From IMG/VR virus record IMGVR_UViG_3300026966_000012: a stretch of DNA of 64,000 nt, one strand, 5' to 3'. How positions within the stretch are numbered: the stretch's first letter is position 1; the number at the start of each line of letters is the position of its first letter. Under the pieces are notes generated by a model. That model was not told the origin of the DNA. It searched no databases and saw nothing but the letters and a program-made list of their open reading frames with translations. The position numbers were made by a program, and so were the translations under genes. The DNA comes from a virus (taxonomy: Duplodnaviria > Heunggongvirae > Uroviricota > Caudoviricetes). Shown here piece after piece: positions 14,762 to 51,530 of this stretch.

Positions 14762-14771
14762 CGCAACCGCC

Positions 14772-15293: not shown

Positions 15294-15295
15294 CC

Positions 15296-15421: not shown

Positions 15422-15430
15422 ACTATATAC
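15422..15430 (+). promoter_or_regulatory. TATA box of a cassette promoter
   Basis: actatatac. Confidence 0.4.
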
Positions 15431-15453
15431 CTGTAAGTGTCCAAGTATAAGAT

Positions 15454-15800: not shown

Positions 15801-16029
15801 GTTGCTGGGCGTGATCGAGGTCGAGAGCAGCAAGCCGTACGTGAAAGACGTGTACGACGTGGTCCGCGTCGATGGGCCCGATCTCGAGACGGTCTGCGTC
15901 GAAGCTGGCGAGCGCCACGAGCTGGGCGACCGCGTCCGCTGGCCGAACGAGCTCGTGACGGTGATGTCCCGGGCGACGCTGTACGACCCCGACGGCAACG
16001 AGATCGAGATGGCTGAGCTCGGCCGATAG
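15790..16029 (+). CDS. hypothetical protein
   Basis: 79 aa. Confidence 0.45.
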   Translation: MSDELLGVIEVESSKPYVKDVYDVVRVDGPDLETVCVEAGERHELGDRVRWPNELVTVMSRATLYDPDGNEIEMAELGR

Positions 16030-16082
16030 GGCCCCGGCTCCCGCCTCGGCCTACGCGCGCCAAGGCGCCGCAACCCGGCAAC

Positions 16083-16120
16083 GCGTGTGGGTACGTACCG
16101 ACGTGTGTGTATGTACAGAC
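16083..16120. repeat. GTACGTACA alternating purine/pyrimidine element (degenerate copy)
   Basis: gcgtgtgggtacgtaccgacgtgtgtgtatgtacagacg. Confidence 0.4.
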
Positions 16121-16305
16121 GCCGACCCCGAACCCCGATTCGCCCGACCGGCTGCACTACCACCAGCAGCGACCGGCTCAGCCGACAAAAAACGGGCCCA
16201 CATCACGACGGTTTTCACGCGCGGAATCCAAAACGAACGCCTCAGGGCTCCTACGCGCGGAATGTGACCAGAAACTATATACCTGTCAAAGTACAAGTAT
16301 GTAAT

Positions 16306-16542
16306 ATGGAATCAAAAATTCCATCCCGACGGAGCAGCGAAGCGTGCGAGAACGGTGTCGAGAACGCGATCAGTGAGCGAGAACGTCGCCTCGTGCGGGA
16401 CGTGACGGCCATCGTCAACGAGCTCGAGACGATCTCGCAGCACGACGAGATGCTGAGCGGGCGAATGACGAAGCAGTGGGCCGAGGGGCTGTGCGACGCA
16501 GTCGACGAGTTCGCCGAGTCGGACCCGCACGCGCAGGAGTAG
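16306..16542 (+). CDS. hypothetical protein, N-terminus MESKIPSRRS
   Basis: ATG in hairpin TGGAATCAAAAATTCCA. Confidence 0.5.
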   Translation: MESKIPSRRSSEACENGVENAISERERRLVRDVTAIVNELETISQHDEMLSGRMTKQWAEGLCDAVDEFAESDPHAQE

Positions 16543-16544
16543 GG

Positions 16545-16610
16545 CGGGCGAGCGGGCTTTTTTGTGGGCGCTGATGTCGCGTGCCGATTTTCCGCCGTGC
16601 CCCGCGCCGC
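16545..16610 (+). terminator. T6 tract plus conserved terminator motif closing the cassette array
   Basis: gggcttttttgtggg, then GTGCCGATTTTCCGCCGTGCCCCGCGCCGCG. Confidence 0.5.
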
Positions 16611-17133
16611 GTCGTCCAGCCGAACGGTGGGTGTCGTTCCCGTGGGCGCTCGAGCTGACGCCGTGTCGTACGGTGACGCTCTGACCCGTGCAGTCGGTCG
16701 CGTCGTACGGCGGGCCCCCTGAACGGCGCCCCACTAAAGTCAAATTTTAGATATATCCTCGTTTCGACCTACTTTTCAGGGCACACCGCTGTGAGAGGTG
16801 CGTATCGACAATAATCTATCATAACCCCTCCCGAATAGCTCCCCATAACCCTGTCTTCAACGATGTCGCCCGTCCACGTCCCCATTTGTCGGGCACACCG
16901 ATTTTCAGGCACTCGCCTCTGGTGGTAGTGAGTTTCGGTGACATGAACCATATCGATTGACCTGTATGTACCCATATTTCGAATCATAACGAAAATTATA
17001 TATCCGCTTACTGACTATCTTAGAATGTCCCTCCCGTGGAACGGAGTGACGCATTGCATGAAGCGAACGCACGACCGGCCTGGAGACCCGGTCACGTACC
17101 CGAGTAGCACCGCACTCACTACCACCAGGGACG

Positions 17134-24192: not shown

Positions 24193-25836
24193 ATGCCCAC
24201 AGCGAACCTCCTGAACACGAAGGCCGGCAAGTTCGGCCAGGTCCCCGGCGCCGCCTCTCGCGCTCGCATGTCCGAGCTCGTCGAGGGGAAAGGTGCGATC
24301 GACCTTCGCGACTACCAGTCCCACTTCGAGCAAGCGTTCGACGATCCCGTCGAAGCACAGATCAAGTTCGAGAACTGGTGTTGCCGAGTCAAAGACACGC
24401 TGATCTCGTCGTCGGGTATCGATCTCCGACCATACCAGAAGGAGTTCTCCGATCGCATCATCAAGTCCGTCGTTCGGAATGATGGACAGACGTTCTTCGC
24501 CGAATGGGCTCGTCAGAGTGGAAAAACGGAGACACTGGCCTCGACGGCCTACGCGGTGTCTGTCCTGTTTGCCCCGATCCGCATCGGTATTTTCGGTCCG
24601 AAGCAGCGACAGGCGCAGATCATGTGGGACCGCGTGAAAGAGCGGTACAACCAGGAGGTTCTCGACGGACTTGGGCTCGAGATCGAGAAGTATGGGGGAA
24701 ACACGTTCAAGCTCTCCTCTGGGTCCGTGGTTCAGGCGATCACGGCTGGCTCGGGGAACATTGAGGGGGAGACATTCGACCTGATCCTCATCGACGAGAC
24801 GCAGAAGATCAGCCGCCGGATGCTCCTTGCGGAGATCTGGCCGATGGGGGCGGAGACCAACGCGACGAAGTGTTGTATCGGAACGCCGCACTTCCAGGAC
24901 TGCTGGTTCCGAGAGCAGCTGGAGCGGCTGAAGGGCACGCCGTTCTGTATGATATACGACTGGCGGACGCCGGCGAAATACTCGAAGAACTACCGGAAAT
25001 CGATCGCCCGCCAGCTGGAGCAGATGAGTCCGGAGTCCGAGGAGTTCCGCACACAGTACGAGCTCGAGTGGATTCTGGAGTCGGGGATGTTCATCACGAT
25101 AGAGGACTGGCGCCGGATGAACCCGCCGCCGCTCATGACCCCGGTCGTGACGAAAGAGGAGCTGTACGACAGCGAGATCAACTCGAAGTGGCAAGTGAGA
25201 GCGGGCGTCGACCTCGCGAAAGAACACGACTCGACTGTTCTGACGGTCACTGGCAAATACTTCGGGTCGTGGGAGCCATACTGGGATGGCTTCTCGGAGG
25301 AGACGATCGTACTCCTCGACGTGGTCGAATTGGAGGGCCTCGAGTACCCGGACCAGATAGACATCATTCAGGAGGAACTGGACCGATGGCACGCCGACGT
25401 GCTTGGAGTGGACTCGACTGGTGTCGGCGACCCGGTGACAGATATCCTGAAGCGAGAGCTGAACCAGCACGTCGAGGGCATCAAGTTCACGTCATCGAGC
25501 AAGCACGACCTGTACAAACACGTCGAGCGGAAGGTGAAGGTCGAGGAGGAATGGGACTACTGCAACTTCGTGATCCCAAAGAAGGTCCGCTCCTACCCAC
25601 ACCTGGAGGTGTCGATGCGGAAGATGGAAGAACAGTGGTTGGAGCTGACGAAAGAGTACAAAGGGTCACGCATGAGTGTTGAGGGACCGGATAGCGGGCA
25701 CGACGACTACCCGGACAGTGCAGCCCTCTCCATGTGGGTGCAGGACGCCGACTACAACATCGACGAGAAGCACATGACCTCGCCAACCCCAGTCCTGGGG
25801 ACGATGAACGGCATCGGGGCGAAGATCGGGTACTGA
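24193..25836 (+). CDS. terminase large subunit
   Basis: Walker A ARQSGKTE, Walker B LILIDETQ, C-terminal nuclease region GVDSTGVGD; 547 aa. Confidence 0.9.
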   Translation: MPTANLLNTKAGKFGQVPGAASRARMSELVEGKGAIDLRDYQSHFEQAFDDPVEAQIKFENWCCRVKDTLISSSGIDLRPYQKEFSDRIIKSVVRNDGQTFFAEWARQSGKTETLASTAYAVSVLFAPIRIGIFGPKQRQAQIMWDRVKERYNQEVLDGLGLEIEKYGGNTFKLSSGSVVQAITAGSGNIEGETFDLILIDETQKISRRMLLAEIWPMGAETNATKCCIGTPHFQDCWFREQLERLKGTPFCMIYDWRTPAKYSKNYRKSIARQLEQMSPESEEFRTQYELEWILESGMFITIEDWRRMNPPPLMTPVVTKEELYDSEINSKWQVRAGVDLAKEHDSTVLTVTGKYFGSWEPYWDGFSEETIVLLDVVELEGLEYPDQIDIIQEELDRWHADVLGVDSTGVGDPVTDILKRELNQHVEGIKFTSSSKHDLYKHVERKVKVEEEWDYCNFVIPKKVRSYPHLEVSMRKMEEQWLELTKEYKGSRMSVEGPDSGHDDYPDSAALSMWVQDADYNIDEKHMTSPTPVLGTMNGIGAKIGY

Positions 25837-26073: not shown

Positions 26074-27807
26074 ATGAGTGACGCAGAAACACCGACAGAC
26101 GACGCGAACGATCCAGTCGAGATCACCGCCGAGGTCGAGTCGGCTGACGGCACAACGGCAACGGTCACCCGATCGGCATCGCTGGCCGAAGTTGTCTCTG
26201 AGCCCCGCGAGATCCTCGAGAAAGATCAGTTCGAGACTGACTTCGACCTGTATGAACGGCTCATAGAGATCGACCCCGAACTGGCTGGGACGATCCGCGC
26301 ACAGGCACAGCTGGCCTCTGGCTTCGAACTAATCCACCCCACTACAGAAGGAGACAGTGAGGAGCCGACGGACGCAGATGTGACCGCACATAACGACTGC
26401 ATGGAGCTGGTCCAGGCCCTGGACCTCGACCTGTCCCAGCCGTCGATGTTCAAGCACATGATCGGGATGGGTAACGACATCTCGAAGATCATCTATTCGG
26501 ATGGCGTTGGCGTGACTGGTCTCCAGTCGCTCCCCCTCCGGTCGGTGACGATCATCGACGAGGACACACAGCCGGGTGTGCAGAACGCAATTGCTGAAGC
26601 GAAAAAGCAGGCGCAGGACGACGAGGAGATCGAGCTCACGACGTACACCGATAACCTCCCGGACGCAGTCGTACAGGATGCCGACTTCTACGTCCTGAAC
26701 GAGGGCAAGAAGGACATGAAGATGATCGAGTCGTGGAAGATCCTTCACCTCGCTGTCGAGCGCCGTGGCAACTGGTTCACCGACAAGTTCGACCGCAAGA
26801 CCTACGGGGTGTGGGGTGCCCCGCGAATCGAGCCGACAAAGTTCGCCCTCCAGGCCAAGCACAACACGCTCACGAACAAGGTGTCGATGGATGACTCACT
26901 GATCGCCCGTGAGATCTACCACATCGACGTCGCCACGCTATTCGGCCACATCAATAACGACGACAAACGAGAGAAGAAAGCGAAAAAGTACGCCTCCGAC
27001 CTCAAGGAGACACTCGAGGGACTGGGTCCCGACGAGAAGCCGATCCTCCCGGACGAAGTGAGCGTCGACGTTCAGGGACCCGAGGGGAAGGCCAAAGAGC
27101 ACGGTGACTTCCTCGACCTGATGAACGATTCCATCATGCACGCACTGACGTTCAACGTCTCTGGCGTCGGGCGTGACGCTGGTGGACCGTACATTGGGAA
27201 CCGGCCGGCGAAGGATACGTCGCTGAACAACGTCCGGCACCTTCGCGAGACGATGGGTCGACAACTCCGGAAGCTGTTCAAGATCCACCTGCTCCTCAAG
27301 CACCCCGAGTGGCGCGAGGATATGGCCGACCCCGAGGACGTCTCGACATGGAAGCTCCGCGATGACATCACGCTCCCCAAAGTCGAGTGGGCGCAGATGG
27401 AAGACGGAGACCTCGAGCGCATCGTCAACGCGGCGACGAAAGCGTACGGGTCGAAGCTGATCACGCGTAACGAGGCCCGAGAGATGTTCGGCCTCGACCC
27501 GATCCCCGACGACGAGATCGACCGCCTGTTCCAGGACCAGTTCATGAACATGGAGATTCAGGACGAGTTCAACCGACGCCAGCAAGAGCGTCAACAGGAG
27601 GATGCCCCCGAACGGGATCAGGATACTGAGGAAGAAGACGAGGAGGATGCAAGTGTTGCTCAGACCGCCTCCACCTCACTACCACCAGAAGCGCAAGAAA
27701 CAGTCGCGAATGAATCGTTCCGATCGGCGCTGGCCACAGGGTTCGATGACGCTGTGTCGAACATGAACGTCGCGCTGAGTCAGGGGGATGCTGATGACAC
27801 TGAGTGA
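26074..27807 (+). CDS. portal protein
   Basis: 577 aa directly after the terminase; acidic C-terminus; size and position typical of a portal. Confidence 0.75.
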   Translation: MSDAETPTDDANDPVEITAEVESADGTTATVTRSASLAEVVSEPREILEKDQFETDFDLYERLIEIDPELAGTIRAQAQLASGFELIHPTTEGDSEEPTDADVTAHNDCMELVQALDLDLSQPSMFKHMIGMGNDISKIIYSDGVGVTGLQSLPLRSVTIIDEDTQPGVQNAIAEAKKQAQDDEEIELTTYTDNLPDAVVQDADFYVLNEGKKDMKMIESWKILHLAVERRGNWFTDKFDRKTYGVWGAPRIEPTKFALQAKHNTLTNKVSMDDSLIAREIYHIDVATLFGHINNDDKREKKAKKYASDLKETLEGLGPDEKPILPDEVSVDVQGPEGKAKEHGDFLDLMNDSIMHALTFNVSGVGRDAGGPYIGNRPAKDTSLNNVRHLRETMGRQLRKLFKIHLLLKHPEWREDMADPEDVSTWKLRDDITLPKVEWAQMEDGDLERIVNAATKAYGSKLITRNEAREMFGLDPIPDDEIDRLFQDQFMNMEIQDEFNRRQQERQQEDAPERDQDTEEEDEEDASVAQTASTSLPPEAQETVANESFRSALATGFDDAVSNMNVALSQGDADDTE

Positions 27808-31066: not shown

Positions 31067-31562
31067 AAAGGGTAGAGAGTCTGAAAGGGATTAGGTAGGA
31101 AAGTTTTCATTCCGACGTGTGCCGACCCTGTTTCCAGACCGTAACCCCCCACCTCTCGGGCCTGTAAACCACTCTCCACGCAATCCGGCCGAAAAGGCCC
31201 TCTAAACCGCACTCTCAGAGCTTCTATCCTTTGAATATGCCATGTCTGAGCGACATTCTGGGTATCCAGACTGGTTTCCCCTCACCAACCACTCATGTCC
31301 GATACCGCAGGATAACCACCCTGACACTCGTACCACCAGGAACGAAGGCCCGTATTCCTTCAAGATATACAGAGACAAGCAGAGTGGAATCGATAGACTG
31401 CACTGACCTCCACGCATATACGAAAAACGACAGAACAGAAATCTTTAATATCACATCCCACATATTTCTATTCACCCACAGCTACCCAGTGGGACGTGCT
31501 CCCCGAGTGCGTAGAACGGAGATATACATGAAGGAATGGCGACAGAAGTGGAGGAATAGTCT

Positions 31563-38695: not shown

Positions 38696-39696
38696 TGGAC
38701 ATCGACGAGATCTACGAGCAAGAGATTGACGCTCGCGAAGACATCGTCGAGGCGTGTCCCATCGACATCTACGTCGCGTCGATCAACCCCTACTGGGCAT
38801 ACCCGAACAAGCTGATGTCGTACTACGAGACGCGGCCCGGCGTTCGTGATTCGTGTCGCCAGGTGATCGTCGACTCTGGGAAGACGCGTATCGGTAACAT
38901 GAGCGAGATCATCCAGGCGGCTATCGACATGGATGCTGACCAGGTGATACCGCCGGACCCGACGCCATACACAGACGGGTACGACGAGCTCACGCCCCAC
39001 GGCCACGCCGAGGAACAGGCACAGCACTACTGGGAGTGGTATCGAGAAGACGTCGACGGGACGATTTTGCTCCCGATCCACCCGCCGTATCAGCGGTTTA
39101 TTGAGGAGCTCGGTCGGTGGGACCCTGGGCACATACTCGGGTACGAGGACGACCCGTACTTCGACTACCCGAGTACGCCTGAAGCTGAAGAACGCTACCT
39201 CGCCGGTGTCGAGCACTACTCGCTCACGTACGACCTGATCGGTGCCGCCGATGGCGTTGCGGTCGGGAGCCTCCTGGGCCTCGACGTCTTCGAGCAGATC
39301 ACGGCACTCAAGCAAGTACGAGAGGCGGTCGGGCCGTACAAACACGTCCACGCACTTTCGCCGACCCCTCGGCCCGAGATGCTGCTGTTTCTCCGGCGAA
39401 ACCCTGGGATTATCGACTCACTCGACCTGTCGACGCCCGAGACGGCGCCGGCTGGGAACAAGCTTCCCGACCTGCGGTTCTATCCGCAGATGAAGTACCT
39501 GTTCCCACCAGCCCATGCGAACATCAGCCCCGTCAGAGGTGCAGCGTCGACGATGATCGCGCTCATGCTCAACTTCTGGCTGAGTGAGTGGGTCAAAGAG
39601 GAGGAGTTGATGGAGATGCTCGAGGAGCACTACGACTGGGTCGAGCGTGAGCAGACCGCCCAGACCGGCCTGGAGGCGTTCGGACATGGCGACTAA
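38695..39696 (+). CDS. TGT/DpdA-like protein, degenerate paralog
   Basis: VIVDSGKTRIG (degenerate DSGG box); C-terminal half aligns with the 39686 ORF. Confidence 0.4.
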   Translation: MDIDEIYEQEIDAREDIVEACPIDIYVASINPYWAYPNKLMSYYETRPGVRDSCRQVIVDSGKTRIGNMSEIIQAAIDMDADQVIPPDPTPYTDGYDELTPHGHAEEQAQHYWEWYREDVDGTILLPIHPPYQRFIEELGRWDPGHILGYEDDPYFDYPSTPEAEERYLAGVEHYSLTYDLIGAADGVAVGSLLGLDVFEQITALKQVREAVGPYKHVHALSPTPRPEMLLFLRRNPGIIDSLDLSTPETAPAGNKLPDLRFYPQMKYLFPPAHANISPVRGAASTMIALMLNFWLSEWVKEEELMEMLEEHYDWVEREQTAQTGLEAFGHGD

Positions 39697-40915
39697 CCTC
39701 GTCGACGACGGTCATCGTCCCACGCCGGAACGAGACACGTTCCGTCACGTCTGGGCGAGAGAACGCGGGCCCTGGGTCGTCCTTGAGCGCATCAAAGGGA
39801 CGCGAATGGAGAGCGGTGAGATCGTCGCTGAGTGCGATGACTACCTGGAGGCACTCGCGTTCGCTGTCGATTCCGAGACAGAGGACTGGGTTATCACGGA
39901 GATCGCTGGTCAGTGCTGCAACTGTGGACAGCTGGTTGTCGTCGACGAGCTCGCTGAGGAGCCGACGTGTCCACACTGCAACGACGTCCTCTGGCTGGCC
40001 GCCGAGCAGCGACGGTTGGCCGAGTTTGCCCGCGACCGGCTGGCGTTCGATATGTACTGGGGTGTTGCCTCTGGCGCACAGCGGAAAGCGATCCGTGTCC
40101 TTGCGCACGGATTCGACCATCGCGAGCCAGACAATCTCAACATCATGCTGAACTACGCGACGCAGAATAATCAGCTCCTGACCGAGAAGGGACTGGAGCT
40201 CATGACGAACGTCGAGACCCTGTTTATCGACTCTGGCGGCTACTCGTTCTTCGAGCGAGAGGGTGGATACGACACTTCAGACTGCGAGTACCTGCGATAC
40301 ATCGCCCGCGTGCAACCTGATTACTTCGCACTCAGGGATTACCCGTGTGAGCCTGACATCCTGGATGCACGCGACACGACCGTCCAATACCACCAGCAAC
40401 GGACGACAGAGAAAGCCCAGATCCTGCTCGATATGCTTGATGACTTTGCGATCACGGCCACACCAGTTGCGGTCGTGCAGGGGTGGTCGCCCGATGATTA
40501 TCGGTCACACCTCCGGCAACTCTATCGCGCTGGTGTCCTCGACGAGGTGGAGCACATCGGCATTGGGACCCTCTGTGGTCGCGAAGACGTTGCCCAGATC
40601 GCGACCATCGTCGAGGCCGTCAGAAAGAGTGTTGGACCGGACTTCAAAATACACGGGTTCGGTGTCAAGCGAGAGGCGTTAGAACGCCCGGACGTCGTCG
40701 AGTCACTCGACTCGGCCGACACACTCGCGTACAGCATGAAGCCGATGTACGATTCAATCGCTACTGGTGGTATGGTCGCGAACACGTGGAAACACGAAGC
40801 GCGAGGGTTCCTGGATTACTATGCCACGATCCACGAGTCGCTCAGACGAATCGAGCACGGGGAAGCCGACGAAGATATAGTCGCCCAACAGACGCTTGCA
40901 TCATATGGTGACTGA
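39686..40915 (+). CDS. tRNA-guanine transglycosylase (TGT)/DpdA-like protein with an N-terminal zinc ribbon
   Basis: FIDSGGYSFFE matches the TGT substrate-binding box DSGG[FY]Q; CCNCGQ...CPHC. Confidence 0.5.
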   Translation: MATNLVDDGHRPTPERDTFRHVWARERGPWVVLERIKGTRMESGEIVAECDDYLEALAFAVDSETEDWVITEIAGQCCNCGQLVVVDELAEEPTCPHCNDVLWLAAEQRRLAEFARDRLAFDMYWGVASGAQRKAIRVLAHGFDHREPDNLNIMLNYATQNNQLLTEKGLELMTNVETLFIDSGGYSFFEREGGYDTSDCEYLRYIARVQPDYFALRDYPCEPDILDARDTTVQYHQQRTTEKAQILLDMLDDFAITATPVAVVQGWSPDDYRSHLRQLYRAGVLDEVEHIGIGTLCGREDVAQIATIVEAVRKSVGPDFKIHGFGVKREALERPDVVESLDSADTLAYSMKPMYDSIATGGMVANTWKHEARGFLDYYATIHESLRRIEHGEADEDIVAQQTLASYGD

Positions 40916-44854: not shown

Positions 44855-45012
44855 CTACGCGCCCTCACACGCACTCTAACGGAATCCGATGCCCGGCCCA
44901 TACTGGTCCTTACTATACGGATACAACAGATACAACGCCTATACAGCACCTTCTGAGCGATCATTATGTTTAGATAATAGGGTTTTTATCCCATACCGCC
45001 ATACTAACGGAG

Positions 45013-45669
45013 ATGACACTGGTGGCCGAGTTCAGTGTGACGACGCCGATTCTGGAAGATACTCGCTTGTCGTTCCCACATATATCACTCGAGATGGTGA
45101 GTCTCTATCTCACAGAGGACGGTCAGGTAAAGTTAGTGCTATGGGTTGAAGGAGATGGTGAGGAGGAGTTTTTTATGGAAATGCAGCACGATATGACAGT
45201 GGATGACGTGGAGGTGTTGGCACACCTCGATGATGACTCCCGAATCCTGTGCTCGGTGGTACTGACTGAAGAAGCGTCAAAGATGACGTCATACTCACAG
45301 GTAGTCGAATCGGATGTCGTTTGGATCAGTGTGGTCATGCAGGGAGACAGGGGCCGATGGTTGGTTCGGATACACGACAGAGACCGTCTGAGCCGATTCG
45401 TTCGAGGGATACGAGACGAGAATAATGAATCGATTCAACTGGTGAGTCTGTACGACGATGCCGAGATGAAACGTGGTGAGCGAGGACGGGTAGAGGTTTC
45501 TGTGCCCCAGTTAGATGCGCTGTCTACCGCGTACGAGATGGGGTACTTCGACAATCCACGACGAGCATCACTCGATCAGGTGGGTGATCAGCTGGGGATC
45601 TCGTCTGGAGCTGTGAGTGGACGGATCAGACGGGCTGTGAGAACATTGGTTCGAGAGACCGTAGAGTAG
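45013..45669 (+). CDS. HTH_10 (Bat/bacterio-opsin-activator type) transcriptional regulator
   Basis: C-terminal QLDALSTAYEMGYFDNPRRASLDQVGDQLGISSGAVSGRIRRAVRTLV is the haloarchaeal HTH_10 signature; lower GC3 than neighbours. Confidence 0.65.
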   Translation: MTLVAEFSVTTPILEDTRLSFPHISLEMVSLYLTEDGQVKLVLWVEGDGEEEFFMEMQHDMTVDDVEVLAHLDDDSRILCSVVLTEEASKMTSYSQVVESDVVWISVVMQGDRGRWLVRIHDRDRLSRFVRGIRDENNESIQLVSLYDDAEMKRGERGRVEVSVPQLDALSTAYEMGYFDNPRRASLDQVGDQLGISSGAVSGRIRRAVRTLVRETVE

Positions 45670-45990
45670 ATTGTGGGCGTGAGTAACAGATGGTTATACA
45701 TAAAGTATTGATAGCGACACGGTACGTGTTATAGCCATATGCGGCGATTGATCGGTAGAGAGGAGTCTGGCCAAAACCACCGCCTAAACAGGTAGTATTT
45801 TATTTTTATGTAATGGTTTAATGTCCAACTCTAAATAGCTATTTCAGGCTCTCTAAGAACTGTTTATAGTAATTCTGTCTATTTAAGAAGACTGATACAA
45901 CGTAACACTTATCTCCTAATCGCGACAAGGTACGAGTACCCCTCGGCGAAGGGGGTCGTCCCACGACGGGACGCGGCTACCCACACCTCC
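45670..45990. other. AT-rich non-coding region (lowest GC in the window); candidate origin or regulatory region
   Basis: A/T runs such as tattttatttttatgtaatggtttaatg; no ORFs. Confidence 0.35.
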
Positions 45991-45994
45991 CCAG

Positions 45995-46372
45995 ATGTCG
46001 ACAGCCACACGAAACCAATCGGTAGAGATTGGTACAGAAACGACGACGCTCGTCCGGGTCGCTATAGAAGATGGCGACCATGGATACGTTATCGTCCAGT
46101 TCGAAACGGACTACGAGCCCGCAACGCACTCAGAAGTACAGGAGCGAGTGCGGGCAATGTGGAACAATCTCCCCGTCCGCGAGTATCGGACACTTGCCGG
46201 CCGAGTAGTTACACAGTGGCCCGGTGCTGTCGCTGGTGTCTGTGGTGGAGTTCTTCAACACGATCCGTCCCAAGAGACATGGCATTGCGAACATTGCGAT
46301 GTCCGACTTCCCCCAGGAGTCTGGGCGGCTCATGTTGAAGGCTGCTTTCGCTCACAGTGGAGAGATCAATGA
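45995..46372 (+). CDS. hypothetical protein
   Basis: C-terminal HCEHCD. Confidence 0.5.
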   Translation: MSTATRNQSVEIGTETTTLVRVAIEDGDHGYVIVQFETDYEPATHSEVQERVRAMWNNLPVREYRTLAGRVVTQWPGAVAGVCGGVLQHDPSQETWHCEHCDVRLPPGVWAAHVEGCFRSQWRDQ

Positions 46373-46812
46373 CGACAGAACCAACTGACGTACTGGAAGA
46401 ACAGAAAGCAACATTCGAAGCGAAGAATGAGGACTACTCGGACACGTGGATCGTGTCGGGTATCGCCCTCTCCTCGCTTCACGACGAGCCCGTGGTGCTC
46501 GATTCAGACATCGACCACATCGTGAACGGAAACGTTCACCGTCTCCTCGACAAGGTGCTGCGCGGCTACAGCGCAACGATCATCAACGACGACGTCAACT
46601 TCGAAGCGGCGGTTGACTCGTTCAGAGATGCAGCAACCTACGCGGCGATGCTCGCGTCGGTGCTCGAGGGAGAACCAACGGAACGGCTTCACACGGCGTA
46701 CGATAACGCCCTCGCAGGCGGTATCGACGAAGGCGATCTCGATGTGCTGATCAACGCCCACGAGAGTAGTACACCGACCAGCATCGGCTACAGCCCGGAG
46801 GACCCGCGATGA
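46357..46812 (+). CDS. putative all-alpha NTP pyrophosphohydrolase (MazG-like), weak
   Basis: Adjacent to a clear MazG-like gene; EDYSDTW. Confidence 0.3.
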   Translation: MERSMTTEPTDVLEEQKATFEAKNEDYSDTWIVSGIALSSLHDEPVVLDSDIDHIVNGNVHRLLDKVLRGYSATIINDDVNFEAAVDSFRDAATYAAMLASVLEGEPTERLHTAYDNALAGGIDEGDLDVLINAHESSTPTSIGYSPEDPR

Positions 46813-47150
46813 GCTGGGACACCGAGTTCGACGACCGCTACCAGGAGATGGCCTGGGTCGTCGCAGATGGCTGGGAGATGCGTCCGGAGTACAGTAGCGA
46901 CCGAGACTACGTCGCGCAACTCGAAGCTGTCCGCGAGGAAGTGCTCGAGCTCTCGCACGCGATCCGTGGCGAGGGACGTGACGACCCGTCGATTGTCGGT
47001 GAGGAACTCGCCGACTGTCTGATCACGCTCCACCTGCTGGCTGTGCAGTTAGATGTCAACCCCTGGCCATACTACCACGCCAAGCAAGAGTACAACATGA
47101 ACAAGACGGGCACACGGACGGAGTCGGGCAAAGTCATAGACGACGCGTAA
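46809..47150 (+). CDS. MazG-like nucleotide pyrophosphohydrolase
   Basis: REEVLELSHAI...EELADCLITLHLLAVQL matches the MazG EE..E / EELGDLL pattern. Confidence 0.55.
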   Translation: MSWDTEFDDRYQEMAWVVADGWEMRPEYSSDRDYVAQLEAVREEVLELSHAIRGEGRDDPSIVGEELADCLITLHLLAVQLDVNPWPYYHAKQEYNMNKTGTRTESGKVIDDA

Positions 47151-47245
47151 ACCGCCATACGGCGGCAACGTACACACTTATTATCCCCCAGCGACTACAA
47201 GATAAGCACCCACTCCTGGAGCGGAGTGTATCAGAATAGAGTAAT

Positions 47246-50236
47246 ATGAGCCAACCAGACAGTAGTGTGCGCCTCCCGAAGAAGCAAACAACGGGAGCCA
47301 CGCTCGAAGACCGACTGACAGAGAACGCGTACCAGCGGATTATTCCACAGCGATACCTCAAGAAGGACGAGAACGGTGTGCCAACGGAGGAGCCAGAAGA
47401 CCTGTTCGAACGCGTGGCGAAGAACATCGCCATCGCTGAGGCGATCCACACGGACGAGACGGTGTGGATAGAACCCAGGCACATCAAGCCCGACCACCCG
47501 CGACGCGAGGACCTGATCCGCGAGGTATTCGACGACTACGGCATCGCTGATGCCGAGGGCATGGAGCCGACCACGGAACTGGACGAGGAGAACGCCAAGT
47601 GGGTCTCCTACGATACAATCATCGACGACCTCGACACTACCACCAGAAGCGTCGTCGAGGACACGAAAGAGCGGTTCCAGGATCGTATGGAGCGTCTGGA
47701 TTTCATCCCGAACAGCCCCACCCTCGCCAACGCCGGCGACGAGCTCCAGCAACTCAGCGCATGTTTCGTGATGTCCCCGGAAGACGACATCGCTGACATC
47801 CACGACACGCTTCGTGATGCTGCGCTGACGTTCCAGTCGGGAGGCGGCGTTGGGTATGCGTTCAGCTACCTTCGACCCTACGGTGACCGTGTCGGCTCGA
47901 CTGGTGGTATCGCATCGGGCCCGCTCACGTTCATGCGGACCTACGACCAGATGTGCCGGACGATCGCCCAGGGCGGGATGCGCCGCGGCGCGCAGATGGG
48001 TGTGATGCGAGTCACGCACCCTGACGTGATCTTCTTCATCCACTCGAAGAACAAGGACGTCTCACTCGCGCAGGCCCTCCGTCTGAACGACCCGAAGGAC
48101 TACGTAAACTCGTCGTACGGGGAAGCCCTCGAAGAAGCCCGCGACACACTCGAGCGGTTCACTGACGACGAAGGACGTCTCGAACCACACCTCCGAAACG
48201 CTGTCGAGGCACAGCTCGCCAACTTCAACATCAGCGTGACGGTCACCGACGACTTCATGCTGGCCGTGGAGAACGACGAGCTCCACACGTTCATCAACCC
48301 GCGCACTGGACAGCCCCACATCGCGACCGAGGAGACCAAAGAGATGTACGAGTGGTTCGACCTGGGTCACCACGTCACTGTGGGAGAGCCACTACGTGTC
48401 CCGGCTCGCGAGATCTGGGATGACATCATCGAAGGTGCGCACGAGAACGGCGAACCAGGGGTGCTGTTCATCGACAGTGCGAACGCGGACCACTCGTTCC
48501 CGACGGAATCGACGCCGACATGGCGCGACGACGATCAGTTCGAGATGTCGACGACCAACCCCTGTGGCGAGCAATGGCTCATGGAGAACGAGGCGTGCAA
48601 TCTGGGCCACATAAACCTCTCGACGCTTGTGGCCGAGGATGCACCCGACTGGCGAACGTACCTCGACACATACGGCGCCCCGAGTGGGTACGAACCCGAC
48701 CGGTCTGAGATGGCATACGTCGTTGGTGATTTCCTCGAGAAAGCCATCGACTGGGAGGAGCTCGACGCCCGCGTCGACGACGGCGTTCGGTTCCTCGACA
48801 ACGTCGTCACCATGTCGTCATTCCCCACCCCGGAGATCGAACAGACAGTACGGGATAACAGGAAGATAGGACTCGGGATCATGGGACTGGCCCAGATGTT
48901 CGTGCAGATCGGGACCAAGTACGGGAGCGATGTCTCGAACGAAGTGACCAGACAGGTGATGCGCCACATCAACCAGCGGTCGAAAGACGCATCGCTACGT
49001 CTGGCTGACCAGCGTGGGTCGTTCGAAAACTGGGAGCACTCGAAGTACGCCGACCCGACCGCCCACACAGACTGGTTCGAGCGCCAGACTGGAGAGGCGG
49101 CCGACGTCTGGGAAGATGGCTACCCGATACGGAACCACAACACGACCACAGTGGCGCCGACTGGGACAACTGGAATGATCGGAAACACGAGCGGTGGATG
49201 TGAACCGATCTTCGGTGTTGCACACTTCAAAAACGTCTCTCAGGACATCCAGGGAGACGAGCAGCTCGTTGAGTTCGACGACTATTTCCTCCGTGTCCTG
49301 GAGGCTAACGACGTCGACGTCGAAGCGGCGAAGACAGAGTGTCTCGAGCAGATGCAAGCCAACGAGTTCGAGGGTGTGAAGGGGCTCGAAACGGTCCCGG
49401 ACGAGATCGGCGAGCTATTCGTCACCACGGACATGCTCAGTGGCCTCGAGCACGCGTCTGTCCAGTGTGCCGCCCAGGAGGGCGTGGACAGTGCGATCAG
49501 CAAGACCGTCAACTTCCCCAACAGCGCGACCAAACAGGACGTGCAGGAAGTGTACGCGTACCTGTGGAGCCACGGAGCCAAGGGAGGAACGATCTACCGC
49601 GATGGGTCCCGTTCGAAGCAAGTGATCTCAACCAGAGCTGATCACGGAGACGTGGCCGGCGGAGAGCCCATGTCGCGAGAGGACGCTGAGGCTCGAATCG
49701 ACGAGCTCGCAGAGGAACACGGTATCCCACTGGCCGCCGCTGAGCAACCCGCTACTGGTGGTATCGAGCTGGCTGAGCCGGGCAAGGTTCTGTCTGCTCG
49801 ACGCGAGCGCATCAAGACGGGATACGGGAACATGTACGTCAACATCGGGTTCGACGACGAGGGTCGCCCCATCGAGACGATCTGCAACATCGGGAAGTCG
49901 GGCGGGTTCACCAACTCGATGGTCGAGGCCATCGGCAAACTGTCGTCGCTGGCACTCCAGGCTGGCGTTCCAGCCGAGGAAGTAGTCGAGAAACTCGACG
50001 GCATCTCCTCGCCGGACATCGGGTTCGACGATGGTGAGCAGATAGCCTCACTCCCGGACGGTATCGCCACCGCACTTCGTCGTGCGGTCGAGGCCGAGAG
50101 TGAAGCGACACTCGAGATCAAAGCCCACAACGATCACAACCCGAACGAGGAGTCCTGTCCGGACTGTGGCGGCGACGTCGTTTACGACGGTGGGTGCCCG
50201 AAGTGCGCCCTCGAGTGTGGTTGGTCGAAGTGCTGA
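47246..50236 (+). CDS. nrdJ: class II (adenosylcobalamin-dependent) ribonucleotide reductase
   Basis: 996 aa; active-site TTNPCGEQ; C-terminal zinc ribbon CPDCGG...CPKCALECGWSKC. Confidence 0.85.
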   Translation: MSQPDSSVRLPKKQTTGATLEDRLTENAYQRIIPQRYLKKDENGVPTEEPEDLFERVAKNIAIAEAIHTDETVWIEPRHIKPDHPRREDLIREVFDDYGIADAEGMEPTTELDEENAKWVSYDTIIDDLDTTTRSVVEDTKERFQDRMERLDFIPNSPTLANAGDELQQLSACFVMSPEDDIADIHDTLRDAALTFQSGGGVGYAFSYLRPYGDRVGSTGGIASGPLTFMRTYDQMCRTIAQGGMRRGAQMGVMRVTHPDVIFFIHSKNKDVSLAQALRLNDPKDYVNSSYGEALEEARDTLERFTDDEGRLEPHLRNAVEAQLANFNISVTVTDDFMLAVENDELHTFINPRTGQPHIATEETKEMYEWFDLGHHVTVGEPLRVPAREIWDDIIEGAHENGEPGVLFIDSANADHSFPTESTPTWRDDDQFEMSTTNPCGEQWLMENEACNLGHINLSTLVAEDAPDWRTYLDTYGAPSGYEPDRSEMAYVVGDFLEKAIDWEELDARVDDGVRFLDNVVTMSSFPTPEIEQTVRDNRKIGLGIMGLAQMFVQIGTKYGSDVSNEVTRQVMRHINQRSKDASLRLADQRGSFENWEHSKYADPTAHTDWFERQTGEAADVWEDGYPIRNHNTTTVAPTGTTGMIGNTSGGCEPIFGVAHFKNVSQDIQGDEQLVEFDDYFLRVLEANDVDVEAAKTECLEQMQANEFEGVKGLETVPDEIGELFVTTDMLSGLEHASVQCAAQEGVDSAISKTVNFPNSATKQDVQEVYAYLWSHGAKGGTIYRDGSRSKQVISTRADHGDVAGGEPMSREDAEARIDELAEEHGIPLAAAEQPATGGIELAEPGKVLSARRERIKTGYGNMYVNIGFDDEGRPIETICNIGKSGGFTNSMVEAIGKLSSLALQAGVPAEEVVEKLDGISSPDIGFDDGEQIASLPDGIATALRRAVEAESEATLEIKAHNDHNPNEESCPDCGGDVVYDGGCPKCALECGWSKC

Positions 50237-50355
50237 TCGCGTAGACTCACCGTTTTTCGGATAGCTTGAAACCAAACGAGTGGAAGCCACTCGTGTATGA
50301 AAACACTCTTAATCTGATAGTACCAAGAATGTGATAACGCCTCCCCAGGTGTCAC

Positions 50356-51165
50356 ATGGACAAAGAAACAACGGAAGTGTCGGCCCACACCAACTGGGTC
50401 CACCCGCAGCTGCGAAACGCGGGCTTCGATATCTTCGACGTGGAGGGGTACAGTCTGGACGAGGACGCGGATTCGGTCGAGCTGTTCATCGACCGCCGGA
50501 GAGTCCGCGACGTCCGAGGGTACAACGCTGGCCGAGTCTGGCGCGAACTACAGCAGACAGTCGACGATACAGAACTGGAGGCGAAGGAGCGGCTCGCCAC
50601 GCGCGCAGGCTGTGACTACGTCGTCGCGGTCTATGACGACAAACGCGTCCGAGTGTACCGAGTAGACAGCCAGGGTGTCGAAACGATCACCGAGGAACTG
50701 TCCTTCCCCGAGTTCGGTGTCTGGGTGTTCAGCCACAACTCGACGACCGAGCTCGGTAAGGAGTTCATCCACGACGACGACTTCCCGACGCTGGACGCGG
50801 CCCTGAGACAGAACGGGACGCCGTGGCCGCCGAACCTCGATGGGTTCTGGTACGACGATGATGGGGTGCAGTGTCTCATCGAGTATCAGACCACGAACGT
50901 CACGTCCCCGGCGAATCACTCGAACAACCGCTATTTCTCACAGGACCACGGCCGCTGGAAACACCTCTGGGGGCTGGCACAGGCGCTCGACCTCCCGCTC
51001 GTGATCGTCGTCTGGTCGCCCAACGAGAAGTACCAGAACGAAGTGAAGGTAAAGATCGTCCACGAGGTCAACTTCAGCGGTCGTGACCGCGGCCTGTCTT
51101 ACTCCAGTGTGCAGCTGCTGGAGCCAGCGCAGGTGAGTGACGAGATCCGGATGGTGGCCCAATGA
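50356..51165 (+). CDS. hypothetical protein
   Basis: 269 aa. Confidence 0.5.
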   Translation: MDKETTEVSAHTNWVHPQLRNAGFDIFDVEGYSLDEDADSVELFIDRRRVRDVRGYNAGRVWRELQQTVDDTELEAKERLATRAGCDYVVAVYDDKRVRVYRVDSQGVETITEELSFPEFGVWVFSHNSTTELGKEFIHDDDFPTLDAALRQNGTPWPPNLDGFWYDDDGVQCLIEYQTTNVTSPANHSNNRYFSQDHGRWKHLWGLAQALDLPLVIVVWSPNEKYQNEVKVKIVHEVNFSGRDRGLSYSSVQLLEPAQVSDEIRMVAQ

Positions 51166-51530
51166 CGTTCGAGTACCAGCACGCCCGGGCCGACCGGGTC
51201 GTCGACGGTGACACGATCTGGATGACAGTGGATGTTGGGTTCTACCAGTACGTGAAGATCCCGTTCCGACTCATCGACGTCGATACGCACGAGATCCACT
51301 TCGTTAGCCACGATAGCGAGGAGTACAAGCAGGGAATGGTGGAGAAACAGTTCGTCATCGATTGGCTCACTGAAGCTGAGCTCGGTCGTGGCGACTGGCC
51401 GCTGGAGCTGATCACATACGGCACCGGAAAGTACGGTCGGTGGTTGGCCTACGTCAAGCGCAAGAGTGACGGCGCGATCCTGAACGAGGACCTGCTCGAC
51501 GCGTTCGACGACATTCGGTACGGTGAGTGA
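51162..51530 (+). CDS. SNase-like (thermonuclease) nuclease
   Basis: RVVDGDTIWM and a staphylococcal-nuclease-like layout. Confidence 0.55.
   Translation: MTFEYQHARADRVVDGDTIWMTVDVGFYQYVKIPFRLIDVDTHEIHFVSHDSEEYKQGMVEKQFVIDWLTEAELGRGDWPLELITYGTGKYGRWLAYVKRKSDGAILNEDLLDAFDDIRYGE

What the first reader, a model, noticed from the sequence alone, without database searches (positions are those of the whole stretch)
44880..45990. Host-like Bat-type HTH_10 regulator with atypical codon usage next to a 320-bp AT-rich non-coding island
ORF 45013..45669 ends in the haloarchaeal HTH_10 (bacterio-opsin activator type) DNA-binding signature. It has a sensor-like N-domain and noticeably lower GC3 than its neighbours, which suggests recent acquisition from a host. 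Immediately downstream (45670..45990) is the most AT-rich stretch of the window, with A/T runs and no ORFs. It is a candidate DNA-unwinding element or origin, or a regulatory region controlled by this regulator.
Basis: partly seen in the sequence, partly recalled or inferred. Interest (0 to 1): 0.55.

Follow-up and report, generated by a model that had tools for sequence, protein, structure and literature searches.

The report
Viral BAT/HTH_10 regulator beside promoter island
A haloarchaeal tailed virus carries its own fast-evolving copy of a typical haloarchaeal DNA-binding regulator, and the very AT-rich DNA after it is most likely the promoter and structured leader of the next group of genes, not a replication origin or a sign of recent gene theft.

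Summary
ORF 45013-45669 is a 218-aa BAT+HTH_10 protein. Its GC3 (0.57) is second lowest of 69 genes. The 100 bp at 45786-45885 (27% GC) is the most AT-rich stretch of the 60.5%-GC window.

The interpretation mostly fails.
- **Not a recent host acquisition.** The gene sits at the same position in three diverged virus lineages. One is a circular 148.9-kb plasmid-like provirus of Halobaculum halophilum. The best cellular homologues are only 27-37% identical. The low GC3 recurs in all three lineages and is shared with the gene across the island.
- **No support for an origin.** There are no conserved flanking repeats, no skew turning point and no neighbouring initiator gene. In the complete relative, orc1/cdc6 and parA lie about 70 kb away.
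- **What the island most likely is.** It is the intergenic control region of the downstream unit (125-aa protein, MazG, RNR). A TATA-like box keeps a fixed offset. Then come hairpins with compensatory changes and a conserved GCTACCCA just before the ATG. A fourth lineage that lacks the regulator keeps this layout.

The regulator and its flanks (about 44855-45900) are the most diverged segment of a conserved block. An ACNGATACAACR box occurs twice upstream of the gene and once next to the downstream promoter. This weakly suggests autoregulation and control of that promoter. Interest is modest.

The parts
44855..45012 (+). Intergenic region upstream of the regulator gene (48% GC). It is the left end of the hyperdivergent cassette and the presumed promoter of a leaderless HTH_10 mRNA.
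   Evidence: GC. Identity to L004 falls from 71-79% to 36-55% exactly here. The TTTTTAT box at 44983-44989 lies 30 nt before the ATG. The best hit of the virus's own promoter matrix starts at 44977, 36 nt before the ATG, which is the spacing seen at the virus's other promoters, but the score is weak at 4.9. The promoter is inferred, not shown.
44917..44937 (+). Two overlapping copies of the box ACNGATACAACR (ACGGATACAACA and ACAGATACAACG, 9 nt apart). This is a candidate operator.
   Evidence: the only three exact matches in 64 kb, on either strand, all flank this gene. An 8-mer present three or more times in the two intergenic regions arose in 18 of 5000 shuffles. The box is not conserved in L004 or L094. 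L094 has its own tandem repeat ACGGGTGAC..ACACCTA upstream of its gene.
45013..45669 (+). Virus-encoded BAT + HTH_10 transcription regulator, 218 aa.
   Evidence: Pfam domains. There are 255 full-length homologues at E<=1e-10, of about 215 aa and 27-37% identity. Of 72 family members, 72 match HTH_10 and 69 match BAT. The AlphaFold2 model has pLDDT 93.9 and shows an alpha/beta N-domain followed by a C-terminal helical HTH. Foldseek matches to sigma region 4 and LuxR-type HTH chains are weak, E 1e-3 to 7e-2. The gene is syntenic in L004 and L094.
45670..45785 (+). Diverged 5' part of the island (47% GC). Presumed 3' untranslated region of the regulator mRNA.
   Evidence: It is 40-50% identical to L004. 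The first bases are homologous to the longer C-terminal coding end of the L004 gene.
45786..45920 (+). AT-rich core (28.9% GC). It contains T-runs (45797-45809), the conserved block TATGTAATGGTTTA (45807-45820), the conserved block ATTCTGTCTATTTAAGAA (45872-45889, with TAAGA invariant in four lineages), the third ACNGATACAACR box (45891-45902) and the TATA-like box AACACTTATC (45904-45913).
   Evidence: GC. Conserved blocks. The spacing from TAAGA to the first hairpin is 55 nt, ungapped, in the window, L004 and L094 (sequences). The TATA-like box reads CTTATC, TTTATC, TTTAAC or CTTATT in the four lineages. The L004 version scores 9.2 on the virus promoter matrix, whereas the window version scores below 3.8.
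45938..45973 (+). Two tandem GC-rich hairpins at the predicted start of the downstream mRNA. Hairpin 1 is 45938-45956 and hairpin 2 is 45957-45973.
   Evidence: Folds. The hairpin 1 stem CCCCU/AGGGG is invariant in three lineages. The hairpin 2 stem reads CGTCCC/GGGACG (window), CGCCCC/GGGGCG (L004) and GTTGCC/GGCAAC (L094). Four of its six pairs changed on both sides and none is broken (read). L095 has a single longer hairpin at this place, z = -4.5.
45975..45994 (+). Conserved leader end GGCTACCCACACCTCCCCAG, directly before the ATG.
   Evidence: AGCTACCCA is identical in L004, L094 and L095 and reads GGCTACCCA in the window. Its function is unknown.
45995..46372 (+). First gene of the downstream unit, 125 aa, unknown function. 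It has the lowest GC3 in the window.
   Evidence: It is 76% identical in L004 and 39-40% in L094. The CEHC..HVEGC motif is not conserved in L094. The AlphaFold2 model is poor, pLDDT 68.

Best explanation
The window is part of a large haloarchaeal tailed virus with nearly all genes on one strand.

ORF 45013-45669 is a virus-borne short BAT+HTH_10 transcription regulator. It is probably made from its own small, leaderless, single-gene transcription unit. This unit sits between two conserved gene blocks.

The AT-rich island after it is the control region of the next transcription unit. That unit begins with the 125-aa gene at 45995, followed by a 147-aa gene, MazG and a class II ribonucleotide reductase. 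Its presumed parts, in order, are:
1. T-runs that probably end the regulator's transcript.
2. One or two TATA-like boxes, the proximal one at 45904-45913.
3. A predicted transcription start near 45935-45939.
4. A leader of about 58 nt that opens with two hairpins and ends with the conserved GCTACCCA..CCUCCCCAG AUG.

The regulator cassette with its flanking non-coding DNA (about 44855-45900) evolves much faster than its surroundings. The regulator probably binds the ACNGATACAACR boxes, two upstream of its own gene and one abutting the downstream TATA-like box. That would let it control its own expression and the downstream promoter.

Shown: the domains, the synteny, the composition, the conservation pattern and the covariation. 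Inferred: promoter use, the transcription start, termination and all DNA binding.
For: Virus context: terminase, portal, DpdA, ThyX, MazG, RNR and a tail-sheath-like protein. About 111 of 113 called genes are on the + strand.

Regulator identity.

Same position in three lineages: L004 and its copies (IMG/VR UViG 3300027007_000012 and ENA ORDC01000044) and L094 (NZ_CP058532.1).

The island is again the lowest-GC 100 bp of the locus in L004 (29%) and L094 (36%).

Fixed architecture in all lineages: the TAAGA block, then the TATA-like box, then about 25 nt, then hairpin(s), then AGCTACCCA, then the ATG. Hairpin 2 has compensatory changes in four of six pairs (and the sequences).

The same grammar, promoter then about 30 nt then a 5' hairpin, recurs at many other genes of this virus.

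The L004 proximal box scores 9.2 on a promoter matrix trained on the other intergenic regions.

L095 keeps the island layout without any HTH_10 gene, so the island belongs to the downstream unit.

Haloarchaeal promoter elements and leaderless mRNAs are as described in PMC4983044.

Hyperdivergence of the cassette:
- HTH_10 is 51%, 38% and 41% identical in the three pairwise comparisons, against 57-95% for most neighbours.
- Its synonymous difference is 0.83 (saturated), against 0.33-0.62 for the flanks.
- The nucleotide identity profile drops to 36-62% only between about 44860 and 45900.

Box enrichment.
Against: There is no transcript data, so every promoter, start and terminator call is a prediction.

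The window's own proximal box scores below 3.8 on the virus promoter matrix, and the regulator's promoter scores only 4.9. AT-rich DNA also gives matrix hits on the minus strand.

The ACNGATACAACR box was found post hoc, with p about 0.004-0.008. It is absent from the islands of L004 and L094.

Because L095 has the island without the regulator, the regulator is not needed for the island to exist.

Relative to L094, the 125-aa gene (39%) and the 350-aa gene (42%) are as diverged as HTH_10. The regulator is therefore not uniquely fast-evolving.

Only four lineages exist in the searched collections.
Confidence: 0.6

Rival explanations
1. The AT-rich island is a replication origin or DNA-unwinding element of the virus, and the HTH_10 protein acts at it.
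For: It is the least stable duplex in the window (27% GC over 100 bp). At the 300-bp scale it is the lowest-GC stretch of the complete 148.9-kb relative (45%). AT-richness is conserved at this position in four lineages. The best single change point of whole-sequence GC skew falls at 45800.
Against: The skew change is a slope change from 0.037 to 0.007 per base, with no sign reversal or minimum. It disappears at third codon positions, where the step is at about 52 kb, at the structural genes. In the complete circular relative the cumulative skew rises monotonically through the island, and the detrended extremes are at about 72 and 98 kb.

No conserved inverted or direct repeats flank the AT core. 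No initiator gene was found in the window.

In the relative, orc1/cdc6 (50187-51431), parA, DNA polymerase and helicase lie 55-70 kb away. Its lowest-GC 100 bp (47191-47290) sits in a CDS-free gap beside orc1 and parA. By established knowledge, archaeal origins usually adjoin orc1/cdc6.

In that relative several other intergenic regions are about as AT-rich.
Confidence: 0.08
2. The island encodes a small non-coding RNA. This could be a sense RNA from the distal AT-rich boxes, or an antisense RNA running back into the 3' end of the regulator gene. The conserved hairpins would then belong to that RNA and not to an mRNA leader.
For: The conserved blocks in the AT core are unique in the window. 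The hairpins show covariation. Promoter-matrix hits lie on the minus strand at homologous places in the window (45794, 45827) and in L004 (10786, 10877).
Against: No Rfam family matches, even at E<=1. No T-run follows the hairpins, which instead run straight into the conserved start codon. Minus-strand matrix hits are expected by composition in AT-rich DNA. The same promoter-then-hairpin layout precedes many protein genes of this virus.
Confidence: 0.1
3. The regulator cassette is an immunity-type or lifestyle switch. It would be a lineage-specific repressor or activator with co-evolving operators that governs maintenance of the plasmid-like provirus state or exclusion of related viruses.
For: The regulator and its flanking non-coding DNA form the most diverged segment of a conserved block, with saturated synonymous sites. 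Lineage-specific tandem repeats lie upstream of the gene in two lineages. A close relative is a circular episome with ParA, ParB and Orc1 in a cultured strain. The two closest lineages co-occur in one sequencing run.
Against: L004 shows no repeated box. The third box copy exists only in the window. Other genes are equally diverged relative to L094. One lineage does without the gene. No integrase or other lysogeny marker was examined, and there is no phenotype.
Confidence: 0.15
4. The low-GC cassette is a recent import, from a host or from a lower-GC virus, and the island is merely the recombination scar.
For: The window allele is AT-shifted (GC3 0.57) compared with the L004 allele (0.69). Synonymous sites are saturated between these alleles although the flanks are not. 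One cellular homologue, from a Haloferacaceae MAG, also has GC3 0.57.
Against: The three viral alleles are each other's closest relatives (51%, 38% and 41%, against at most 37% for any cellular protein). The position is conserved. The GC3 dip is shared by the orthologues and by the non-replaced neighbouring gene in all three lineages. The 3' part of the island is conserved and structured rather than a scar.
Confidence: 0.07

Closest known systems
Short BAT + HTH_10 proteins of Halobacteria (Pfam PF15915 + PF04967, about 210-225 aa, annotated 'helix-turn-helix domain-containing protein' or 'bacterio-opsin activator domain-containing protein'). By my own recollection DmsR of Halobacterium is a studied member.
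   Same: Same two-domain architecture and length. Homology is full-length: 255 representatives at E<=1e-10, and 72 of 72 checked match HTH_10 and 69 of 72 match BAT. The model is confident, with an alpha/beta N-domain and a C-terminal helical HTH that weakly matches sigma-r4 and LuxR-type chains.
   Different: It is encoded by a virus. No homologue was found by tblastn in 50,697 deposited phage and virus genomes or in PHROGs. Only one IMG/VR contig carries one. Identity to any cellular member is at most 37%. Its BAT score is only just above the Pfam cut-off.
Bat, the bacterio-opsin activator of Halobacterium salinarum, and QarA of Haloferax volcanii (long BAT-type regulators; PMC13464002).
   Same: Shares the C-terminal BAT + HTH_10 output module.
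   Different: It lacks the PAS, GAF or receiver input domains, so it has no recognisable sensor. It is not an orthologue. A Brz-like zinc-finger partner is not supported, because the neighbouring protein's Cys/His motif is not conserved in L094.
Immunity regions of temperate phages (a repressor gene with its operators, as in lambdoid phages).
   Same: A DNA-binding regulator and its flanking non-coding DNA form the most diverged island within otherwise conserved synteny. Short repeats flank the gene. A relative is maintained as an episome.
   Different: The fold and family are different. No divergent promoter pair is evident. The operators are not demonstrated, and the repeats are absent in one lineage. 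No immunity phenotype is known.
Haloarchaeal promoters and leaders as mapped in Haloferax volcanii (PMC4983044).
   Same: An AT-rich TATA-like box lies about 25-30 nt upstream of the predicted start. The regulator gene fits the common leaderless type.
   Different: The downstream unit has a conserved structured leader of about 58 nt. That paper reports structured leaders to be untypical of haloarchaea, but they are common in this virus.
Orc1/Cdc6-dependent archaeal replication origins.
   Same: There is an AT-rich, easily melted stretch in an intergenic region.
   Different: There are no conserved origin-recognition repeats, no adjacent orc1/cdc6 and no skew turning point.

Membership tests
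BAT/HTH_10 regulators (short form) | C-terminal HTH_10 domain (PF04967) above the Pfam gathering score | tested here: met
   55.1 bits against a cut-off of 23.1, residues 166-213.
BAT/HTH_10 regulators (short form) | BAT domain (PF15915) N-terminal to the HTH | tested here: met
   26.1 bits against a cut-off of 25.8, which is marginal. It is supported by full-length homology to a family in which 69 of 72 members match BAT. The L004 orthologue is below the cut-off (18.4 bits), and BAT was not detected in the L094 orthologue at E<=0.01.
BAT/HTH_10 regulators (short form) | End-to-end homology to the haloarchaeal proteins of about 215 aa | tested here: met
   1489 representatives at E<=1e-3 and 255 at E<=1e-10. 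Alignments span residues 1-217 at 27-37% identity.
BAT/HTH_10 regulators (short form) | Cellular members essentially confined to Halobacteria | tested here: met
   Of 167 confirmed genome loci, the 80 best that were listed are almost all Halobacteria. The 115 matching plasmid records listed by organism are all from haloarchaeal genera.
BAT/HTH_10 regulators (short form) | Sequence-specific DNA binding and transcriptional control | not testable with these tools
   Only candidate boxes are available.
Bat proper (bacterio-opsin activator orthologue) | N-terminal PAS/GAF sensor domains in a protein of about 670 aa | tested here: not met
   The protein has 218 aa and no PAS or GAF hit at E<=0.1.
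Archaeal replication origin | AT-rich unwinding stretch | tested here: met
   27% GC over 100 bp, the lowest in the window.
Archaeal replication origin | Conserved repeated initiator-binding elements flanking the AT stretch | tested here: not met
   The repeats found are short and not conserved between lineages.
Archaeal replication origin | Adjacent initiator gene (orc1/cdc6 or rep) | tested here: not met
   The neighbours are unknown small proteins, MazG and RNR. In the complete relative, orc1/cdc6 is at 50.2-51.4 kb and the island is at about 121 kb.
Archaeal replication origin | Strand-composition turning point | tested here: not met
   There is only a slope change in raw skew. Third codon positions show no step there, and the complete relative shows no extremum at the island.
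Archaeal replication origin | Initiation of DNA synthesis at the site | not testable with these tools
   This needs marker-frequency analysis or 2D gels.
Archaeal promoter with structured 5' leader | TATA-like box at a conserved distance upstream of the transcribed element, in the orientation of the downstream gene | tested here: met
   CTTATC, TTTATC and TTTAAC lie at the same ungapped offset, 30 nt before hairpin 1, in three lineages. L095 has ACACTTATTAC.
Archaeal promoter with structured 5' leader | Match to the virus's own promoter consensus | tested here: inconclusive
   The L004 box scores 9.2, whereas the window box scores below 3.8 on a matrix trained on the other intergenic regions.
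Archaeal promoter with structured 5' leader | Leader structure supported by compensatory changes | tested here: met
   In hairpin 2, four of six pairs changed on both sides across three lineages and none is broken. The hairpin 1 stem is invariant. This rests and on my own reading of the sequences, because the automatic alignment misplaced L094. The sample is only three sequences.
Archaeal promoter with structured 5' leader | Mapped transcription start | not testable with these tools
   No transcript data are available.
Phage-type immunity region | Regulator and flanking non-coding DNA far more diverged than the surrounding synteny | tested here: met
   The contrast is less exclusive against L094.
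Phage-type immunity region | Repeated operator sites on both sides that co-vary with the regulator allele | tested here: inconclusive
   Window: three boxes, two upstream and one downstream. L094: two upstream only. L004: none found.
Phage-type immunity region | Immunity or lysogeny phenotype | not testable with these tools
   The only indication is the episomal state of a relative.

The most novel reading that the evidence does not exclude
The BAT/HTH_10 cassette is the lifestyle or immunity switch of a group of large haloarchaeal myoviruses that can persist as ParAB/Orc1-equipped circular episomes. In this reading a host-type regulator family has been recruited by the virus. It evolves rapidly together with lineage-specific operator repeats. 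It gates both its own promoter and the promoter of the nucleotide-metabolism unit that starts in the AT-rich island. It would be the first BAT-type regulator with a defined role in an archaeal virus.
Probability: 0.15. Interest if true: 0.6.

Novelty: new member of a known kind. Interest (0 to 1): 0.33.

Why it matters
Regulation of gene expression in haloarchaeal tailed viruses is poorly known. BAT/HTH_10 regulators are numerous in haloarchaea, but their BAT domain has no known function (PMC13464002).

A virus-borne short member has several useful properties:
- It is conserved in position but fast-evolving.
- It has candidate binding boxes.
- It has a tractable cultured relative, plasmid unnamed3 of Halobaculum halophilum Gai3-2.

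Together these offer a simple system for studying what such proteins bind and do.

The practical result for the scan is mostly negative. The low GC3 and the AT-rich island are stable, inherited features of a promoter region. They are not evidence of recent gene transfer or of an origin.

Tried and rejected
- **Reference phages.** DNA and protein searches of the locus against 50,697 deposited phage and virus genomes gave no match for the region, the regulator or the 125-aa protein. Only the 147-aa neighbour hits Halorubrum tailed virus 27. The terminase hits distant Bacillus, Streptomyces and Halogranum viruses.
- **RNA genes.** No tRNA and no Rfam family in the window. None in the region even at E<=1.
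- **Bacterial-type promoter and terminator scan.** Uninformative for an archaeal system.
- **Hairpin pattern scan of IMG/VR.** Three extra hits were chance matches in unrelated DNA.
- **More relatives.** Searches through the regulator, the 125-aa protein and IMG/VR or metagenome scans found only one further lineage. The 147-aa neighbour finally gave two more.
- **Family-wide genome scan.** The two-sequence alignment worked.
- **Solved structures.** No solved structure was found by sequence. The best fold match for the N-domain is Ta1207 (5m86), which gives no functional lead.
- **Defence systems.** No relevant match for the regulator or its neighbours; the only hit was a marginal TIR-effector match for the upstream 147-aa protein, E 0.0094.
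- **Brz-like zinc-finger partner.** Rejected, because the Cys/His motif of the 125-aa protein is lost in L094. Its model is poor (pLDDT 68), so no fold search was run.
- **GC-skew change point at 45800.** Rejected as origin evidence after the third-position and whole-genome analyses.
- **Automatic alignments of the hairpins.** These misaligned L094, so the covariation in hairpin 2 was read by hand.
- **Within-lineage variation.** None exists to exploit. All copies within each lineage are identical.
Full report
**1. What the window is**

Nearly all of about 113 called genes lie on the + strand. They include:
- a large terminase (24193-25836) and a portal (26074-27807);
- an SPFH protein, ThyX, DpdA (39686-40915) and a MazG-like protein (46809-47150);
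- a class II ribonucleotide reductase (47246-50236) and a nucleotide-kinase-like ATPase;
- a DUF3383 sheath-like protein.

This is a large haloarchaeal tailed virus. Nothing similar at the DNA level is in the deposited phage collection. The terminase is only 27-31% identical to the best-listed hits, from Bacillus and Streptomyces phages; two Halogranum virus records also match at under 60% identity.

**2. The observation**

The ORF 45013-45669 exists as described. It carries HTH_10 (E 6.6e-15) and, just above threshold, BAT.

A full phmmer scan of 1.84 billion representatives finds 1489 relatives. Of these, 255 have E<=1e-10. Nearly all are about 215 aa long, align end to end and are 27-37% identical. 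Of 72 taken for an alignment, all match HTH_10 and 69 match BAT.

An AlphaFold2 model built on that alignment is confident (pLDDT 93.9). It shows an alpha/beta N-terminal domain and a C-terminal helical HTH. Foldseek matches to sigma region 4 and LuxR-type HTH chains are weak, E 1e-3 to 7e-2.

Codon usage:
- GC3 is 0.571, second lowest of 69 genes of at least 100 codons (z = -2.3; synonymous-codon score z = -2.9).
- The lowest of all is the gene on the far side of the island, 45995-46372 (GC3 0.508).

AT-richness:
- The 100 bp at 45786-45885 have 27% GC. The next lowest stretch has 35% and the window averages 60.5%.
- The intergenic region falls into three parts: 45670-45785 (47% GC), 45786-45920 (28.9%) and 45921-45994 (70%).

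**3. Relatives**

Word-based protein searches found only one other lineage for the regulator and for the 125-aa neighbour. This is L004 and its copies, from IMG/VR UViG 3300027007_000012 (88.7 kb) and ENA ORDC01000044 (154.8 kb).

The better conserved 147-aa neighbour gave two more lineages:
- **L094** is NZ_CP058532.1, the circular 148,857-bp 'plasmid unnamed3' of Halobaculum (Halorarum) halophilum Gai3-2.
- **L095** is a 48%-GC scaffold, KB659950.1.

The plasmid is a complete myovirus-like genome. It has terminase, tape measure and baseplate J genes, and also ParA, ParB, DNA polymerase, a helicase and an Orc1/Cdc6 protein. It is therefore a plasmid-like provirus, and it gives a host genus for the group.

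**4. Is the regulator a recent host acquisition?**

No.
- An HTH_10 gene occupies the same slot in the window, L004 and L094, between the 147-aa gene and the island. The alleles are 51%, 38% and 41% identical to each other.
- That is closer than any cellular protein. Cellular homologues reach at most 37% among all representatives, at most about 31% over the full length in 185,579 species genomes, and at most 33% on haloarchaeal plasmids other than the provirus.
- The GC3 dip is inherited. In L004 the two genes flanking the island have GC3 0.69 and 0.66, against about 0.7-0.84 for most neighbours. In L094 they have 0.66 and 0.68, against 0.74-0.90.
- Seven of eight cellular homologues checked have GC3 of 0.72-0.96, so a fresh import from a typical host would look GC-richer, not AT-richer.
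- L095 lacks the gene. The gene was therefore either gained before the three GC-rich lineages split or lost in L095.

**5. The cassette is hyperdivergent**

Between the window and L004:
- The neighbouring genes are 73-95% identical in protein. Their synonymous differences are 0.33-0.62.
- The regulator is 51-52% identical, with a synonymous difference of 0.83 (saturated) and four-fold-site identity of 0.20.
- A sliding nucleotide identity profile drops from 71-95% to 36-62% only between about 44860 and 45900. This spans the upstream intergenic region, the gene and the first two thirds of the island.
- Other intergenic regions in the block are 80-87% identical.

Against L094 the regulator (38%) is again among the most diverged genes, but the 125-aa (39%) and 350-aa (42%) genes are similar.

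Either the cassette evolves very fast, or alleles have been exchanged among related viruses. Both are compatible with the data.

**6. What the island is**

The 3' third of the island is conserved and has a fixed layout:
- A block ending in TAAGA is invariant in four lineages.
- Exactly 55 nt lie between TAAGA and the first hairpin in the window, L004 and L094.
- Within those 55 nt a TATA-like box sits at the same offset. It reads AACACTTATC, AACATTTATC and AAGGTTTAAC in those three lineages, and ACACTTATTAC in L095.
- Next come two tandem hairpins, or one longer hairpin in L095.
- Next comes AGCTACCCA (GGCTACCCA in the window), 12-18 nt before the start codon.

Hairpin 2 reads CGTCCC/GGGACG, CGCCCC/GGGGCG and GTTGCC/GGCAAC in the three lineages. 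Four of its six pairs changed on both sides and none is broken. The hairpin 1 stem is invariant (and the sequences). The automatic alignments misplaced L094, so I read this count by hand.

Many other genes of this virus show the same layout. An AT-rich box of the type ACATATCTATATAC, AGAAACATTTAATATC or ACACTTATTA is followed about 30 nt later either by the start codon or by a hairpin and a GGAG.

On a matrix learned from the other intergenic regions, the L004 proximal box scores 9.2 but the window's scores below 3.8. The promoter call is therefore stronger for the relatives than for the window itself. One possible reading, which is inference only, is that the window's promoter depends on an activator.

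Haloarchaeal promoter elements, the predominance of leaderless mRNAs and the rarity of structured leaders are taken from PMC4983044.

L095 keeps this layout but has neither the regulator nor the 125-aa gene. The island therefore belongs to the downstream transcription unit, and the regulator cassette is an accessory unit placed in front of it.

The T-runs at 45797-45809 are the first oligo-T after the regulator's stop codon and may terminate its transcript (inference).

**7. Origin hypothesis**

The island is physically the easiest place in the window to melt, but nothing else points to an origin.
- No conserved repeats flank it.
- The best change point of raw GC skew does fall at 45800, but it is only a slope change.
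- Third-position skew shows no step there. It shifts at about 52 kb, where the structural genes begin.
- In the complete circular relative the cumulative skew rises through the island with no extremum.
- That relative's Orc1/Cdc6 gene (50187-51431), its divergent parA and the genome's lowest-GC 100 bp (47191-47290, inside a CDS-free gap) lie together about 70 kb from the island. This is a much better origin candidate, given that archaeal origins usually adjoin orc1/cdc6 (established knowledge).
- In that genome several intergenic regions are about as AT-rich as the island.

**8. Does the regulator act on the island?**

The 12-nt box ACNGATACAACR has exactly three perfect matches in the window. 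Two are overlapping copies 76-96 nt upstream of the regulator's ATG. One lies in the island, immediately upstream of the proximal TATA-like box, separated by a single base. A shared 8-mer occurring three or more times in these two regions arose in 18 of 5000 shuffles.

Evidence from the relatives is mixed:
- L094 has a different tandem repeat, ACGGGTGAC..ACACCTA twice, upstream of its allele, but none in its island.
- L004 shows none.
- At the island position of the window's box, both other lineages read TACATAT.

This fits allele-specific autoregulatory sites. It is only weak support for control of the downstream promoter.

**9. Verdict**

The features are real. The explanation is largely ordinary: a virus-borne member of a common haloarchaeal regulator family, sitting in front of a conserved promoter and leader region. 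The points of interest are:
- BAT/HTH_10 genes are rare in viruses. None was found in the reference phages or PHROGs, and only one IMG/VR contig carries one.
- The cassette is hyperdivergent.
- A cultured episomal relative exists that would allow experiments.

Noticed in passing
window 1-17000: At least a dozen copies of a composite non-coding cassette precede small genes. Its parts, in order, are: a T-run element CCGCTTTTGCGCCGTGCCCCGCCG; GCGCGGCAACCCGGTG; CAGTATCAGCCG..ACATATCTATATAC; about 22 nt; a hairpin TGGGAC-AAAAA-TCCCA; and CCGACGGAG. It looks like a repeated terminator, promoter and 5'-hairpin leader unit of an early gene region. The ATGGGA that mechanical ORF calls take as a start codon is probably part of the hairpin.
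   Followed up: partly
window 1-16500 versus 17000-53000: There is a compositional step. The first block has about 65% GC and GC3 of 0.81-0.89; the second has about 59-60% GC and GC3 of 0.71-0.79. The two blocks may have different histories or expression classes.
   Followed up: no
L094, L096-L099 (NZ_CP058532.1, 148,857 bp, circular): 'Plasmid unnamed3' of Halobaculum (Halorarum) halophilum Gai3-2 is a complete relative of this virus. It has terminase, tape measure and baseplate genes, plus ParA, ParB, Orc1/Cdc6, DNA polymerase and a helicase. It is a plasmid-like provirus in a cultured strain, apparently annotated only as a plasmid.
   Followed up: partly
L097 46051-47531 and L098 187-2708 (NZ_CP058532.1 46-52.7 kb): A CDS-free gap holds the lowest-GC 100 bp of that genome (34%). 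It lies next to a strand-switch region with orc1/cdc6 and a divergent parA. This is the likelier origin and partition locus of this virus group. The equivalent region lies outside the window.
   Followed up: partly
L004 12232-16302: The ribonucleotide reductase of the L004 lineage is 1356 aa and contains an intein with a LAGLIDADG endonuclease. The window's orthologue (996 aa) has none.
   Followed up: no
L095 (KB659950.1) 9617-13857: This low-GC (48%) relative lacks both the HTH_10 gene and the 125-aa gene. It has a class I RNR (small and large subunits) in place of the class II enzyme. It still keeps the AT-rich region (35% GC), a consensus-like ACACTTATTAC box, a hairpin and AGCTACCCA before the first gene.
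   Followed up: partly
window 45975-45983; L004, L094 and L095 equivalents: AGCTACCCA (GGCTACCCA in the window) lies 12-18 nt upstream of the start codon. It is the best conserved element of the whole region across four lineages. It is not Shine-Dalgarno-like. An exact copy also sits in the intergenic region at 31480-31488. Its function is unknown.
   Followed up: partly
L003 and L006 (run SRR6201724): The window-type and L004-type viruses, which differ most in the regulator cassette, are both assembled from the same sequencing run. All copies within each lineage are identical over the region.
   Followed up: no
window 39686-40915: A DpdA-family protein (E 6.6e-20) suggests 7-deazaguanine modification of the viral DNA. 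It is conserved in L004 and L094.
   Followed up: no
window 45995-46372: The 125-aa protein has a CEHC..HVEGC motif that looks like a zinc site. The L094 orthologue reads CDKY..YVEGC, so the motif is not conserved. No family match was found, and the structure model is poor.
   Followed up: partly
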